From positions 31,393-95,392 of the IMG/VR virus record IMGVR_UViG_3300038410_000026: a stretch of DNA of 64,000 nucleotides; one strand, written 5' to 3'. The notes under the pieces were generated by a model. That model saw only the letters and a program-made list of their open reading frames with translations. It ran no database searches and was not told where the DNA came from. Positions 291 to 3,363 of the stretch are shown one piece after another (positions within the stretch are counted from its first letter, which is position 1; every line of letters begins with the position of its first letter). The stretch comes from a virus. The translations under genes were made by a program, and so were the position numbers.

Positions 291-599
291 TCATTCTGCC
301 GGAATGGCAGCCTCCAACTCCGCAATTTCTTTCCGGAGAGCTTCCCGCTTCTCCTCGGCGGTCTTCAGAGACTCTAGCCGGATCTTGGCCTCACGCAACC
401 GCTTGGCCATAACGTCGGTCTTGCGGGTGCGAACCTCACGCTTCAATTCAGAGATCCGTTCATCGAGCCACACCGGGGCATCGGTAGAAAGCTCCATGTA
501 GCACCGCTTCAAGGAGGTAGCTGTGCCATAAAGATAAACCACCTCTTCGAGCGACAAGCGAATCAGGTCCAGGTTCTTTAGCTCATCCAATTCCAGCAT
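291..599 (-). CDS. Small coiled-coil protein (102 aa), translationally coupled downstream of the TROVE gene
   Basis: GGAGG SD before ATG at 599; overlaps the TROVE stop; heptad E/K/R/L-rich C-terminus. Confidence 0.75.
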   Translation of the reverse strand: MLELDELKNLDLIRLSLEEVVYLYGTATSLKRCYMELSTDAPVWLDERISELKREVRTRKTDVMAKRLREAKIRLESLKTAEEKREALRKEIAELEAAIPAE

Positions 600-2073
600 G
601 TTCAACCTCCTCTTTCTTCTGGGCGAAGACATCTTTCAACTCCAGTAGCGGCGTCTCCATGATCTCGTCGATCAGCGAGTAACGCGATGTTCGCATGGTC
701 TTGATCAGATTGGGCAGCGAGTAGTAGTCTACGTTGCTGCCGCTCAGATCAAACTTCTGGCAATCGATCCCGGCCCGCACGAGCGTTTCGGAGAAAACAT
801 CCTCCGAATCACCGCTCAGTCGGTACAGGTAAACCGTGGGCTCAACGCCTGTGTTTTCAGCATACTTCTTGTAAACGTTGTAGAAGTACGGAGGATTGTT
901 CTCTCCGCCGTCCGAAATTACAGCTATACCGTTGATTTCAAGACCATTATCGATTGCATACTGCAAGCCGCAGCCGATGGAAGTTCCGCCGCAAGCCCTG
1001 ACGTGCTTAGTCGAGGCGCTAAGTTCACTGTAAGTCTTGCCCGTAACCTCTATGTAGCGCGGATAAACATCGAAGAATACCAAATGCACCTCTCCCTGGA
1101 CCAACTTGGCCAGGGTGGATGCGATCATGCGAGATGCTTCGATGGCCACACTCATGGAACCGGACTTATCGCCGAGCACTAGCCAGTTGCCTTCGATGCC
1201 GCCAAGGGTCTTAATCTGCCGCTCCTGAAGGCTATCCAGCTTCTTGCTCAGAACCTCATCGCCGATGGCTTCTGCCGCCCGCGTGGTTTTGAAGGTGACT
1301 TTCTTGCTTTTCGATGCCTTCTCCAGCGCCGATTCGTAGGCTGCCCGCAGCGCCGCGTTGGATTTCACTCCTAGGCGCTCCAGCAGCTTGGTGTTGGTCA
1401 CCAATTCTGTGGGCGTCATACGGTTGATGAGCGCCAACACGAGGTCGGGATCTTTCCGTTTTTCGCCCAAGGCTCCCGTGGCGACCAGAAAGGGGATCTT
1501 GCGATCCATGATCTCGGAGGCGGCTTCCTGGACCGACATATTCTTGAGGTTGGCGATGGCTTCAAATACCGTCCCTTTAGGCTTATCTCCCTTGAATAGA
1601 ATGAGATCCGCCATGGCGGAAGGCTTGGCGTGGGTCAGGGCGTACAGTTCCTTTAGCTTCTTGCGATGCTGTACGGCGGTCCTTTCCCAACGCGCCCAGT
1701 TCGATTCGAGCGTCTTTAGGTAGTTTCCGATCACCCGATCCAGAAGTTTCGCCCGCCCCGGCAGTTTGATCTCCTTGGCAAAACGCAGCGCCCGTACCAG
1801 ATTGCGCGGATCTAGCAGCGAGAGATGCGCGAGGGAATTCTCGACGAATTCTTGCGGGAACTCTCGCGTGGCGAGAGATACCACCGGAAGGGCCACCTTG
1901 GAGTCCCGGATCTGTCCTTTCTTGCGGTTCCAGGCAATTAGGTGCGCCAGGAATTCCGGCTCCTGTTTGGCCGCAATCTGTCCCATGGGCACATATTCGG
2001 CCAGCTTTCCATGCGCCGACCGCGAGAGTTCGGCGATGATTTGGGTCTTTTGGACCCCGGTTTCTTTCTTCAC
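583..2073 (-). CDS. rsr: Ro60/Rsr-like TROVE + vWA domain RNA-binding protein (496 aa)
   Basis: Helical N-terminal part with MTPTELVTNTKLL (resembles the Ro60 MP.TALLRNL segment); C-terminal vWA with MIDAS DKSGSM, GGTS and ISDGGEN. Start reassigned to GTG at 2073 (AAGGAG SD) because the upstream part of the ORF overlaps the RNA units. Confidence 0.85.
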   Translation of the reverse strand: MKKETGVQKTQIIAELSRSAHGKLAEYVPMGQIAAKQEPEFLAHLIAWNRKKGQIRDSKVALPVVSLATREFPQEFVENSLAHLSLLDPRNLVRALRFAKEIKLPGRAKLLDRVIGNYLKTLESNWARWERTAVQHRKKLKELYALTHAKPSAMADLILFKGDKPKGTVFEAIANLKNMSVQEAASEIMDRKIPFLVATGALGEKRKDPDLVLALINRMTPTELVTNTKLLERLGVKSNAALRAAYESALEKASKSKKVTFKTTRAAEAIGDEVLSKKLDSLQERQIKTLGGIEGNWLVLGDKSGSMSVAIEASRMIASTLAKLVQGEVHLVFFDVYPRYIEVTGKTYSELSASTKHVRACGGTSIGCGLQYAIDNGLEINGIAVISDGGENNPPYFYNVYKKYAENTGVEPTVYLYRLSGDSEDVFSETLVRAGIDCQKFDLSGSNVDYYSLPNLIKTMRTSRYSLIDEIMETPLLELKDVFAQKKEEVEHAGIG

Positions 2074-2088
2074 TGTCGCTCCTTTTAG

Positions 2089-2164
2089 TGCGGCAAGTCC
2101 CGGATGCAATTGGCTGTCGGACCAATTGAAAGATGGTGACATGTAAGCTACCGGAGTAGCCGCA
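2089..2164 (-). ncRNA. Y RNA-like unit 5 (minimal)
   Basis: UGCGGC-UACU-CCGG..UACAUG..[CAAUUGG/CCAAUUG hairpin]..CCGG-GACUU-GCCGCA. Confidence 0.75.
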
Positions 2165-2171
2165 ACTTCAA

Positions 2172-2295
2172 TGGCGCAAGTCGAACCGGCGTCCAAGGCC
2201 CCCGTGAGATTTTTCTTGGGGGGCCTTTCGGATTCGAACCGAATCGCAACCCTTACGGGCTACTTTGCCAGCGTGTATCCGGTTCAGTAGCGCCA
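2172..2295 (-). ncRNA. Y RNA-like unit 4 with T-arm and acceptor-like stem
   Basis: UGGCGC-UACU-GAACCGG..UACACG..GUAGCCC/GGGUUGC hairpin; T-arm UUCGG-UUCGAAU-CCGAA; AGGCCCCC/GGGGGCCU stem..CCGGUUC-GACUU-GCGCCA. Confidence 0.8.
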
Positions 2296-2302
2296 AACTT
2301 AA

Positions 2303-2371
2303 CGGCGAAAAGTCGGAGTTGAGTTGGTTTGCTCAAAAGGATAAGCATGTACTCGGCTCCAGTATTCGCCG
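2303..2371 (-). ncRNA. Y RNA-like unit 3 (minimal)
   Basis: CGGCGAA-UACU-GGAGCCGAG-UACAUG..GCUUA/UGAGC hairpin..CUCAACUCC-GACUU-UUCGCCG. Confidence 0.75.
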
Positions 2372-2378
2372 GTCTTGA

Positions 2379-2484
2379 TTCCGGAAAGTCGTCGTGCCGT
2401 AGTTGCCATACCGTTAGGCGATATCTCCCGTGGGGGATACCCGGATTTGAACCGGGATACATGTAGGCACTCCAGTATCCGGAA
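2379..2484 (-). ncRNA. Y RNA-like unit 2, YrlA-type circularly permuted tRNA mimic
   Basis: UUCCGGA-UACU..UACAUG, then T-arm CCCGG-UUCAAAU-CCGGG, closed acceptor-like stem UAUCCCC/GGAGAUA, D-arm GCCUAACGGUAUGGC, ..GACUU-UCCGGAA. The T-AS-D order matches YrlA. Confidence 0.85.
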
Positions 2485-2492
2485 ACCTCCAA

Positions 2493-2612
2493 TCCCGGCA
2501 AGTCAGTGAAGAAGTCCCACCGAAATGGGTGTCCGGATTCGAACCGGAAATTTCTGATTATAAGTCAGATGCTCTACCGTTGAGCTACATGTATCTTCAC
2601 TAGTAGCCGGGA
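2493..2612 (-). ncRNA. Y RNA-like unit 1, tRNA mimic with D-, anticodon (UAU) and T-arms but no acceptor stem
   Basis: UCCCGGC-UACU-AGUGAAGA-UACAUG-UAGCUCAACGGUAGAGC-A-UCUGA CUUAUAA UCAGA-AAUU-UCCGG UUCGAAU CCGGA..CCCAU/GUGGG..UCUUCACU-GACUU-GCCGGGA. Confidence 0.85.
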
Positions 2613-2620
2613 AACTTTTT

Positions 2621-2677
2621 ATCCCCGGCTGCCGATCAAATCTTCCGTGATTCGGCAGAATCACCGCAGCCGGGGAT
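2621..2677 (-). other. GC-rich leader hairpin at the 5' end of the RNA array transcript
   Basis: 12-bp inverted repeat ATCCCCGGCTGC/GCAGCCGGGGAT enclosing a GTGATTC/GAATCAC hairpin. Confidence 0.6.
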
Positions 2678-2709
2678 CGGGCTCAGGCTCACTTCTCTAT
2701 CGCTTCTCA

Positions 2710-2739
2710 AGGGTACAGCCTTAGGATGCTTCCTGTCAA
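2710..2739 (-). promoter_or_regulatory. sigma70-type promoter for the RNA array and TROVE operon
   Basis: TTGACA (2739-2734), 18 nt, TACCCT (2715-2710). Confidence 0.6.
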
Positions 2740-2794
2740 CAAAAATCTTATGTTGAGCGCAAAAAATTTTATGCTACAGTTGGTAAGAGGGTAT

Positions 2795-3058
2795 ATGACA
2801 GATGGAAGTGGATCTAACGGTCTCGACAAGCCGCGCTCTGGAAAACCAGCGCCAGCAGGCAGCATCGGCAGCAAGATGCGCATTGCCCGTATGATGGCGG
2901 GTTTGCGGCAAGGGGATCTGGCCAACAGGATGGAGATATCCCAGGTGACGGTCTCCTCGTGGGAAACCGGAAGGACGCATCCCAATGCGCTTCAACTGGA
3001 ACGCTTCGCAAGTGTATTGGGGATGGATTTAGTCATCGAATTCCGCTCGCGCCAGTAG
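2795..3058 (+). CDS. XRE/Cro-CI family HTH regulator, divergent from the TROVE operon
   Basis: ARMMAGLRQGDLANRMEISQVTVSSWETGRTHP HTH_3 signature; start uncertain. Confidence 0.85.
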   Translation: MTDGSGSNGLDKPRSGKPAPAGSIGSKMRIARMMAGLRQGDLANRMEISQVTVSSWETGRTHPNALQLERFASVLGMDLVIEFRSRQ

Positions 3059-3363
3059 GGTGAATGGGTTCGCAGGAATCCTAGCATTCTGGCCGATCCA
3101 AGGGGGTTCTGGGAATGAATCTGTACTCCTCCTTCCGGCCAAGATTGGTTTTTCCACATCCAGATCAGGACATCAAGGCCCGTCTTCTGATCCTCCCAGA
3201 AGCCCATCGAGGCCATCGGCGTCAGGTCGTGATCAAGTGAAGCGCACCAGACTTCTCCCGATTGCAACAGCTTGATCGCCTCTTCAACGGTTTTCACCCA
3301 AGTCCAGCCGCACCGGCCATGCTCCCAGGGATCGCGGGTATCGTCCAAAAATAGCTTGATCAT
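2992..3363 (-). CDS. Cyclic-phosphate-processing receiver (cREC-like) domain protein
   Basis: Motifs KLFLDDxR, SLDHDL, TGLDVL and IHSQNPxG. Confidence 0.75.
   Translation of the reverse strand: MIKLFLDDTRDPWEHGRCGWTWVKTVEEAIKLLQSGEVWCASLDHDLTPMASMGFWEDQKTGLDVLIWMWKNQSWPEGGVQIHSQNPLGSARMLGFLRTHSPYWRERNSMTKSIPNTLAKRSS

What the first reader, a model, noticed from the sequence alone, without database searches (positions are those of the whole stretch)
2493..2612. Non-permuted tRNA mimic: intact D, anticodon (UAU) and T arms, with the putative Ro-binding stem replacing the acceptor stem
Seen: UAGCUCAACGGUAGAGC (D-arm), UCUGA-CUUAUAA-UCAGA (7-nt anticodon loop, UAU) and UCCGG-UUCGAAU-CCGGA (T-arm) occur in normal tRNA order. 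Only 2 bp of an acceptor stem can form and there is no CCA end. Known: YrlA has the opposite topology, with the Ro stem replacing the anticodon arm; UAU anticodons are rare in bacteria because AUA is normally read by lysidine-modified CAU. Inference: an unchargeable anticodon-displaying RNA could be a decoy for host anticodon nucleases (PrrC/RloC/AriB-type) or a sink for tRNA-modifying enzymes.
Basis: partly seen in the sequence, partly recalled or inferred. Interest (0 to 1): 0.85.

Follow-up and report, generated by a model that had tools for sequence, protein, structure and literature searches.

The report
Whole-tRNA mimic in phage Y-RNA scaffold
A phage small RNA next to a hidden Ro60-type gene carries a complete tRNA body in normal order but no usable acceptor end and a freely drifting anticodon, so it is a conserved tRNA look-alike of the Y-RNA kind rather than a working tRNA.

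Summary
ARAGORN and Rfam both call a tRNA there (58.9 bits). However, its acceptor stem is reduced to 2 bp, no CCA is encoded, and the body is closed by a 7-bp plus 9-bp helix.

The 496-aa gene just downstream has no Pfam hit, but its predicted structure matches Ro60/TROVE structures over the full length.

A covariance model found 49 distinct units of the same design in 43 related loci, nearly all viral contigs. All lie upstream of the Ro60-like gene on the same strand, and the helices covary strongly (98.7% paired against 65% in shuffles).

- **Anticodon arm:** its shape is conserved. The stem is 5 bp, the loop has 7 nt in 43 of 49 units, and U33 is present in 36 of those 43 loops.
- **Anticodon triplet:** it is not conserved. 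There are 21 different triplets, and they diverge at about the neutral rate. UAU therefore has no special meaning.

Best reading: a Y-RNA-like partner RNA whose cargo is a non-permuted tRNA mimic, not a decoding tRNA. The decoy idea is neither supported nor excluded. D. radiodurans Yrn1 already has this D-anticodon-T orientation, so I class this as a new variant of a known kind. This scan's own notes report similar handle-plus-tRNA-mimic arrays in other phages.

The parts
2493..2612 (-). Whole unit 1 (120 nt): scaffold helix plus non-permuted tRNA-like body
   Evidence: Model R1 hit at 2492-2613(-), 90.9 bits; fold
2606..2612 (-). Terminal stem, 5' strand (7 bp with 2493-2499)
   Evidence: Pair probability 0.95; all 7 pairs covary among 49 units
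2493..2499 (-). Terminal stem, 3' strand
2603..2605 (-). 5' side of the conserved internal loop (UAC; family consensus YACUG)
   Evidence: Column frequencies
2500..2503 (-). 3' side of the conserved internal loop (ACUU; family consensus CGACUU)
2594..2602 (-). Inner stem, 5' strand (9 bp with 2504-2512)
   Evidence: Pair probability 0.97; covariation
2504..2512 (-). Inner stem, 3' strand
2586..2593 (-). Junction UACAUG plus U8 A9. UACAYG is nearly invariant in the family and takes the place of the acceptor 5' strand
   Evidence: U 48/49, A 48/49, C 49/49, A 49/49, Y 49/49, G 48/49
2571..2585 (-). D arm (4-bp stem; loop with A14, G18, G19, A21)
2553..2569 (-). Anticodon arm (5-bp stem, 7-nt loop CUUAUAA; UAU at 2560-2562)
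   Evidence: all 5 stem pairs covary; loop statistics
2549..2552 (-). Variable loop, 4 nt (AAUU)
2532..2548 (-). T arm (5-bp stem, loop UUCGAAU)
2516..2529 (-). Extra 5-bp hairpin with a UUCG loop. It occupies what would be the acceptor 3' strand; relatives have a GNRA-capped hairpin here
   Evidence: probability 0.78; relatives
2089..2485 (-). Four further units with the same scaffold: 2378-2485, 2303-2371, 2172-2295 and 2089-2164
   Evidence: Scaffold scan; fold; R1 hit at 2378-2485, 31 bits
583..2073 (-). Ro60-fold protein gene (496 aa, GTG start after AAGGAG; helical repeats plus a vWA domain with DxSxS)
291..632 (-). Small coiled-coil ORF overlapping the end of the Ro60-like gene
   Evidence: tblastn hits in 56 of 66 related loci, just downstream of the Ro60-like gene in the hits listed

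Best explanation
This is the first of five back-to-back small RNAs transcribed ahead of a phage Ro60-fold protein gene. All five share one scaffold. It has a 7-bp terminal stem, a conserved imperfect internal loop (YACUG opposite CGACUU), an inner stem, and a nearly invariant UACAYG junction. I infer that this scaffold is the handle that the Ro60-like protein binds, as the paired 5'/3' stem is in Y RNAs. The cargo of unit 1 is a complete tRNA body in normal order (D arm, anticodon arm, short variable loop, T arm) with the nucleotides that build the tRNA elbow. It has no acceptor helix and no CCA, so it cannot be charged. The shape of the anticodon arm is under selection but the triplet is not. 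The RNA therefore works as a tRNA-shaped module rather than a decoder. By analogy with YrlA and Yrn1, it most likely tethers or gates the Ro60-like ring with respect to a host factor that recognises tRNA shape. Shown: the structure, its conservation, its linkage to the gene, and the loss of tRNA function. Inferred: protein binding and the tether/gate role.
For: tRNA-like body. Closed scaffold and missing acceptor. Ro60 fold of the neighbouring protein: model pLDDT 85.6. The top 11 Foldseek PDB hits are all full-length Ro60/TROVE structures: Thermus phage phiLo 9kop/9l5y, human 9nen, D. radiodurans 2nvo, Xenopus 1yvp. Their TM-scores are 0.53-0.66 and E-values 5e-10 to 1.6e-7. There is also a marginal profile hit to 9kop and a hit to PHROG 850 'RNA-binding protein'. 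Family: model R1 finds 49 distinct full-length units of at least 59 bits in 43 loci, all upstream and on the strand of the gene. In these, 98.7% of cells are paired against 65.3% in shuffles and 34-42% when slid, and 22 of 24 pairs show compensatory changes. Not a decoder: 163 of 183 free-standing tRNAs in these loci have 7/7 acceptor pairs and 174 encode CCA. Among ARAGORN calls inside scaffolded units, only 2 of 28 have 7/7 pairs and 8 of 28 have CCA. There are 21 different triplets, including UUA and UCA. Triplet divergence in the closest pairs does not exceed the 4-fold-site rate, while the rest of the RNA changes about 5 times more slowly. The bodies resemble each other more than they resemble real phage tRNAs in 44 of 49 cases. 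Precedent: Y RNAs lie upstream of Ro60 on the same strand and carry tRNA-like effector modules (PMC4201824; 10.1101/312249). Phage phiLo Ro60 binds two upstream Y-like RNAs and host PNPase (PMC12135203).
Against: There are no expression, processing or binding data. The known Ro60-contact motifs on the 5' strand (GGUCCGA, GNCGAAN0-1G) are absent from this unit. The Rfam YrlA model scores only 15.5 bits against a gathering score of 69. The protein is only about 15% identical to solved Ro60 proteins and has no Pfam TROVE hit. The alignment used for covariation was fitted to the model, which inflates the percentage paired. Conservation of U33, R37 and A38 shows that something reads the anticodon-loop shape, and a plain elbow-binding tether does not explain that.
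Confidence: 0.6

Rival explanations
1. Anticodon-displaying decoy or sponge. The uncharged mimic soaks up a host anticodon nuclease or a tRNA-modifying enzyme, and the triplet tracks the specificity of that enzyme in each host.
For: A canonical anticodon loop is kept (7 nt in 43/49 units; U33 36/43, R37 40/43, A38 39/43) while the triplet varies. The anticodon stem covaries. A cyclic-phosphate-processing receiver domain gene (cREC_REC, E 3.5e-23) lies 380 nt upstream. The closest real tRNA body is a tRNA-Lys(UUU) at 75% identity, and from general knowledge tRNA-Lys is a classic nuclease target.
Against: Triplet divergence is not faster than the neutral proxy (p 0.16-0.58), so there is no sign of diversifying selection. 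Six of 49 units have 5-, 6-, 8- or 13-nt loops. The cREC gene is found in only 1 of 66 related loci. No nuclease or its target is known for the host. A decoy does not need the Ro60 handle.
Confidence: 0.12
2. tRNA-like processing signal. The tRNA body recruits RNase P or 3' tRNA-processing enzymes that cut the polycistronic RNA-array/Ro60 transcript into units. In some relatives this releases a tRNA-like product.
For: Eight related units keep a 5-7 bp acceptor helix followed by N-CCA. M. smegmatis YrlA is cleaved by RNase P and receives CCA (PMC4201824). The units in the window are only 7-8 nt apart.
Against: This copy and the 30 other short-junction units have 0-5 acceptor pairs, and a 7-bp acceptor helix is a major RNase P determinant (PMC4201824). 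Four of the five units in the window lack a full tRNA body yet share the same boundaries.
Confidence: 0.12
3. A genuine tRNA-Ile(UAU) that reads AUA after processing and CCA addition.
For: ARAGORN and Rfam both call it a tRNA. It is the only tRNA call in the 95-kb genome, and a crude ORF set uses AUA at 8.35 per 1000 codons.
Against: At most 4 of 7 acceptor pairs can form, with three consecutive mismatches, and forcing them costs +13 kcal/mol. No CCA is encoded, whereas 174 of 183 real tRNAs of related loci encode it. Orthologous units carry 21 other triplets, including stop anticodons. Relatives carry a bona fide tRNA with the same anticodon beside the mimic, for example Thr(UGU) in L036 and L064.
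Confidence: 0.04
4. A decaying tRNA pseudogene with no function.
For: The acceptor stem is degenerate and the triplet drifts.
Against: In the closest pair, outside the triplet the RNA changes about 5 times more slowly than 4-fold sites of the adjacent gene (6/124 against 60/241). Every helix shows compensatory changes across 49 units.
Confidence: 0.02

Closest known systems
D. radiodurans Yrn1 (Y RNA bound by Rsr; Chen et al. 2014, PMC4201824)
   Same: It is encoded upstream of the Ro60 gene on the same strand. Its paired 5'/3' ends form the protein-binding stem. As modelled in that paper, its effector module has the D-like / 'anticodon arm' / T order, with the protein-binding stem where the acceptor would be.
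   Different: Yrn1 has no full D arm, a 6-nt 'anticodon loop' and no variable region, and its tRNA likeness is called less evident (10.1101/312249). The phage unit scores 58.9 bits on the Rfam tRNA model and has a canonical 7-nt loop with U33. Its handle motifs (YACUG/CGACUU, UACAYG) are different. I could not test sequence homology because no Yrn1 sequence was on hand.
YrlA (Rfam RF02553; S. Typhimurium, M. smegmatis, mycobacteriophages)
   Same: A Ro60-linked RNA with a tRNA-like effector module that keeps the D/T elbow nucleotides and lacks a free CCA. Examples in phages are known.
   Different: YrlA is circularly permuted (T arm, closed acceptor hairpin, D arm) and has no anticodon loop. 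Its anticodon-stem equivalent leads into the Ro60 module. Here the order is normal and a complete anticodon arm is displayed. RF02553 scores 15.5 bits against a gathering score of 69.
Thermus phage phiLo Ro60 with Yrl1/Yrl2 (PMC12135203; PDB 9kop, 9l5y)
   Same: A phage Ro60 with Y-like RNAs directly upstream. It gives the best structural match to the protein here.
   Different: The phiLo RNAs were defined as stem-bulge-stem RNAs with a CGAA motif and are not described as tRNA-like. The protein is about 16% identical.
Canonical phage tRNAs
   Same: Cloverleaf arms and elbow nucleotides. The unit often lies among phage tRNA gene arrays in relatives.
   Different: No 7-bp acceptor, no CCA, an unconstrained triplet, and enclosure in a conserved two-helix scaffold.

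Membership tests
tRNA (RF00005) | Score above the Rfam gathering threshold, with D, anticodon and T arms | tested here: met
   58.9 bits against 29, model positions 1-71
tRNA (RF00005) | 7-bp acceptor stem | tested here: not met
   At most 4/7 pairs; 2 bp in the minimum-energy fold; forcing the pairs costs +13 kcal/mol
tRNA (RF00005) | 3' N-CCA end, as encoded in the real tRNAs of these phages | tested here: not met
   Absent here; 174/183 free-standing tRNAs of related loci encode it
tRNA (RF00005) | Anticodon conserved among orthologues | tested here: not met
   21 triplets among 43 seven-nt loops; divergence close to neutral
YrlA (RF02553) | Rfam gathering score | tested here: not met
   15.5 bits against 69, E 9.5
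YrlA (RF02553) | Permuted order: T arm, closed acceptor hairpin, D arm | tested here: not met
   The order is D, anticodon, T
YrlA (RF02553) | GNCGAAN0-1G motif near the 5' end (PMC4201824) | tested here: not met
   Reading the 5' strand shows no such motif. The family's conserved CGAC/CGAA lies on the 3' strand
Y RNA in the broad sense (Ro60 partner RNA) | Encoded next to a Ro60 gene on the same strand | tested here: met
   49/49 units lie upstream on the same strand; Ro60 fold shown
Y RNA in the broad sense (Ro60 partner RNA) | 5' and 3' ends pair into a long stem with a conserved bulge or loop, plus a distal effector module | tested here: met
Y RNA in the broad sense (Ro60 partner RNA) | Bound and stabilised by Ro60 | not testable with these tools
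   Needs immunoprecipitation or a gel-shift assay
Ro60/TROVE (the neighbouring protein) | HEAT-repeat ring plus a vWA domain with a MIDAS motif | tested here: met
   Full-length Foldseek matches; D306, S308 and S310 invariant
Ro60/TROVE (the neighbouring protein) | Pfam TROVE sequence signature | tested here: not met
   No Pfam or NCBIfam hit; profile hit to 9kop at only E 0.006

The most novel reading that the evidence does not exclude
The Ro60-like ring and its handle form a modular phage platform that presents interchangeable tRNA bodies, with intact but freely re-assignable anticodon loops, to host enzymes that attack or repair tRNAs. For example, they could act as baits for anticodon nucleases, or as guides that bring cleaved tRNAs to degradation or repair. 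That would make this a counter-defence RNP rather than an RNA quality-control particle.
Probability: 0.12. Interest if true: 0.85.

Novelty: new variant of a known kind. Interest (0 to 1): 0.58.

Why it matters
Bacterial Y RNAs are known to mimic tRNA, but the well-studied YrlA type lacks an anticodon loop and the partner of its tRNA-like module is still unknown. Here a large, unannotated family offers something different.

- **Size of the family:** more than 1,300 homologues of a protein with no Pfam TROVE hit and no informative source name, mostly on contigs from viral or metagenome collections.
- **RNA design:** one conserved handle is coupled to a complete tRNA body. The shape of its anticodon loop is selected, while the triplet is free.

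This narrows what the unknown partner must recognise, namely overall tRNA shape including the anticodon-loop fold. It also supplies 49 natural variants for binding studies. It further warns annotators that tRNA calls lying just upstream of these genes are not decoding tRNAs.

Tried and rejected
- **Sequence searches on the neighbouring protein.** Pfam, NCBIfam and PDB sequence searches found nothing. Only the predicted fold revealed Ro60.
- **First scan of genome contigs** with single-protein patterns found no relatives. The alignment-based scan found five.
- **Exact motif scan** (TAC[TA] ... GACTT) missed most relatives because the loops vary.
- **Boundaries from minimum-energy folds** were too noisy. 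I replaced them with a two-helix scan and then with the covariance model.
- **Sigma-70 promoter scan** found no site in 400-3100, so the promoter proposed near 2739 is unconfirmed.
- **Test for accelerated triplet evolution** in the closest unit pairs showed no excess over 4-fold sites. I therefore dropped diversifying selection as an argument.
- **Palindrome UACAUGUA as a dimerisation site:** rejected, because 13 of 49 units have UACACG, which breaks the palindrome.
- **Two Y RNA reviews** could not be read because they are not held.

Full report
**1. Observation.**
The feature lies on the minus strand.
- Read 5' to 3' from 2612 down to 2493, the 120-nt unit runs as follows:
  - a 7-bp terminal stem;
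  - a small internal loop (UAC opposite ACUU);
  - a 9-bp inner stem;
  - the junction UACAUG followed by U8 and A9;
  - a D arm (4 bp; loop with A14, G18, G19, A21);
  - an anticodon arm (5 bp; loop CUUAUAA);
  - a 4-nt variable loop;
  - a T arm (5 bp; loop UUCGAAU);
  - two nucleotides (CA);
  - a 5-bp hairpin with a UUCG loop;
  - the return strands of the two scaffold stems.
- ARAGORN calls tRNA-Ile(tat) at 2522-2595.
- The Rfam tRNA model gives 58.9 bits, E 3.6e-10 for the whole window. Chance is therefore excluded.
- The Rfam alignment flags three consecutive non-pairs in the acceptor.
- The minimum-energy fold uses the UUCG hairpin instead of an acceptor. Forcing the four possible acceptor pairs costs 13 kcal/mol.
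- No CCA follows.
- The fold is far more stable than shuffles (z -4.96), and the same fold appears when the whole 621-nt array is folded.

**2. Context.**
- The window is a phage: terminase large subunit, portal and DnaB-like helicase are present. The genome held is one 95-kb contig with no other tRNA call.
- Unit 1 is the first of five units that share the same scaffold. They lie directly upstream of a 496-aa ORF (583-2073, minus strand).
- That ORF has no Pfam, NCBIfam or PDB sequence match. It does have more than 1,300 homologues, where named only as 'hypothetical protein', and the closest are on contigs of up to about 130 kb.
- Its AlphaFold model (pLDDT 85.6) matches full-length Ro60/TROVE structures and, at that level, nothing else. 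The matches are Thermus phage phiLo Ro60, human Ro60, D. radiodurans Rsr and Xenopus Ro, with TM-scores 0.53-0.66.
- The DxSxS metal site of the vWA domain is invariant.
- A profile of the family hits the phiLo protein marginally (E 0.006), and PHROG 850 'RNA-binding protein' is hit at 2e-7.
- So a Ro60-fold protein is the neighbour.

**3. Relatives.**
- I fetched 61 viral and 5 MAG loci that encode the protein.
- ARAGORN showed a clear contrast. Of 183 distinct free-standing tRNAs in these loci, 163 have 7/7 acceptor pairs and 174 encode CCA. The calls lying within about 1-2 kb upstream of the Ro60-like gene start with UACAUG, have 4-6 acceptor pairs and mostly lack CCA.
- Folding these with their flanks revealed the same two-helix scaffold around each.
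- A covariance model built from 22 of them finds 49 distinct full-length units of at least 59 bits in 43 loci. Every one lies upstream of the protein gene on the same strand. The window's unit scores 90.9 bits. Free tRNAs and other scaffold units score 57 bits or less.
- On the 49-unit alignment, 98.7% of cells are paired. The figure is 65.3% in shuffles and 34-42% when the partners are slid. Twenty-two of 24 pairs show changes on both sides, including all pairs of the terminal stem and of the anticodon stem. The alignment is fitted to the model, so the percentage is generous. The number of compensatory pairs is not explained by that.

**4. What is and is not conserved.**
- Scaffold: YACUG opposite CGACUU, a G-C pair closing the inner stem, and the nearly invariant U-A-C-A-Y-G.
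- Anticodon arm: the loop has 7 nt in 43 of 49 units. Among those, U33 occurs in 36/43, a purine at position 37 in 40/43 and A38 in 39/43.
- Triplet: there are 21 different triplets. UGA occurs 8 times; UAU occurs only here and in L033. The set also includes the nonsense anticodons UUA and UCA and the unusual A34 forms. The other loops have 5, 6, 8 or 13 nt.
- Rate of change: in the closest pair (L045/L046) the RNA differs at 6 of 124 positions outside the loop but at 2 of 3 triplet positions. Four-fold sites of the adjacent gene differ at 0.25. Across three close pairs the triplet is never significantly faster than that neutral proxy (p 0.16-0.58).
- The triplet therefore looks unconstrained. 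The rest of the RNA is under strong purifying selection.
- The bodies are closer to one another than to any of 142 real phage tRNAs in 44 of 49 cases. They therefore descend from a common mimic and are not repeatedly captured tRNAs.

**5. Two sub-designs.**
- Short-junction units (31 in all, including this one): UACAYG runs straight into U8 A9. Only 0-5 acceptor pairs remain, typically AUG with CAU or ACG with CGU. A GNRA- or UUCG-capped hairpin follows.
- Long-junction units (18): 4-6 extra nucleotides rebuild a 5-7 bp acceptor-like helix. In eight of them N-CCA follows.
- The statement that the scaffold 'replaces' the acceptor is therefore true for this copy. In the family as a whole the scaffold joins the end of an acceptor-like helix of variable length.

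**6. Mechanism.**
- Shown: a conserved, structured RNA that is obligatorily linked to a Ro60-fold gene. It has a tRNA body that cannot be charged and does not keep a codon specificity.
- Inferred: the scaffold is the binding site of the Ro60-like protein. This rests on analogy with Y RNAs, whose paired ends carry the Ro60 site (PMC4201824; 10.1101/312249), and on the fact that the scaffold is the only element common to all units.
- Inferred: the tRNA body is the effector module that tethers or gates the ring. Precedents are Yrn1 with PNPase and phiLo Ro60-Yrl with host PNPase (PMC12135203).
- The conserved anticodon-loop shape suggests that the partner contacts that end of the L as well as the elbow.
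- The decoy idea fits this feature too, but nothing here discriminates between the two. The lack of any excess triplet change, the units with irregular loops, and the absence of the cREC gene from 65 of 66 related loci give it no positive support.

**7. Comparison with what is known.**
- YrlA is permuted and has no anticodon loop. The Rfam YrlA model fails here (15.5 bits against 69).
- Chen et al. 2014 note that Yrn1 differs from YrlA in the orientation of its T and D arms. They also note that it has a 5-bp 'anticodon arm' with a 6-nt loop.
- The topology is therefore not unprecedented. The completeness of the mimic, the different handle motifs and the very divergent Ro60 are new.
- I found no paper describing this family, and Rfam 15 has no family for it.
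- This scan's own notes report similar handle-plus-tRNA-mimic arrays beside Ro60-like genes in other phages. I did not test those notes.

**8. Verdict.**
- This is a new variant of the Ro60/Y-RNA kind. It is of moderate to high interest as part of a widespread undescribed phage RNP. The UAU anticodon itself carries no significance.

Noticed in passing
window 583-2073 (-): The protein downstream of the array has no Pfam, NCBIfam or PDB sequence hit, yet its predicted structure matches Ro60 over the full length. More than 1,300 homologues exist, and those that carry a source name are called 'hypothetical protein'.
   Followed up: yes
window 291-632 (-): A 113-aa coiled-coil ORF overlaps the end of the Ro60-like gene. 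It is conserved in 56 of 66 related loci and may be a partner subunit.
   Followed up: partly
L018:1138-1266, L009:1908-2038, L028:2681-2808, L032:2427-2554, L058:2660-2785, L029:1381-1508: Related units keep a 5-7 bp acceptor-like helix, and all but L018 have N-CCA directly after it in the register I used. ARAGORN also reads a CCA end in L018. The tRNA body still sits inside the scaffold. These could be RNase P substrates, as M. smegmatis YrlA is.
   Followed up: partly
alignment A4, columns 23-28 (window 2588-2593): U-A-C-A-Y-G is nearly invariant in all 49 units. In the window's own array, UACAUG precedes the cargo of units 2, 3 and 5 (unit 4 has AUACACG), which do not carry a full tRNA body. 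It is the best candidate for a protein contact or a processing site.
   Followed up: partly
window 2378-2485 (-): Unit 2 has the YrlA-type permuted order (T arm, closed hairpin, D arm) inside the same scaffold. Both tRNA topologies therefore coexist in one array. Rfam YrlA does not reach E 10 on it.
   Followed up: partly
window 2992-3363 (-) and 2726-3058 (+): A cREC_REC (cyclic-phosphate-processing receiver) gene and an XRE-type HTH gene lie just upstream of the array. The cREC gene recurs in only one related locus (L032).
   Followed up: partly
window 2623-2675 (-): A long GC-rich hairpin with an inner hairpin sits between the presumed transcription start and unit 1. It lacks the scaffold motifs.
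   Followed up: no
L036:99-173 with 1732-1857; L064:1066-1140 with 2004-2126: In some relatives a bona fide tRNA-Thr(UGU) and a scaffolded mimic with the same UGU loop lie within 2 kb of each other.
   Followed up: no
L041:2118-2193: In this locus R1 found no full-length scaffolded mimic. A normal-looking tRNA-Lys(UUU) lies about 800 nt upstream of the Ro60-like gene. It is the closest real tRNA to the window's mimic body (75% identity).
   Followed up: no
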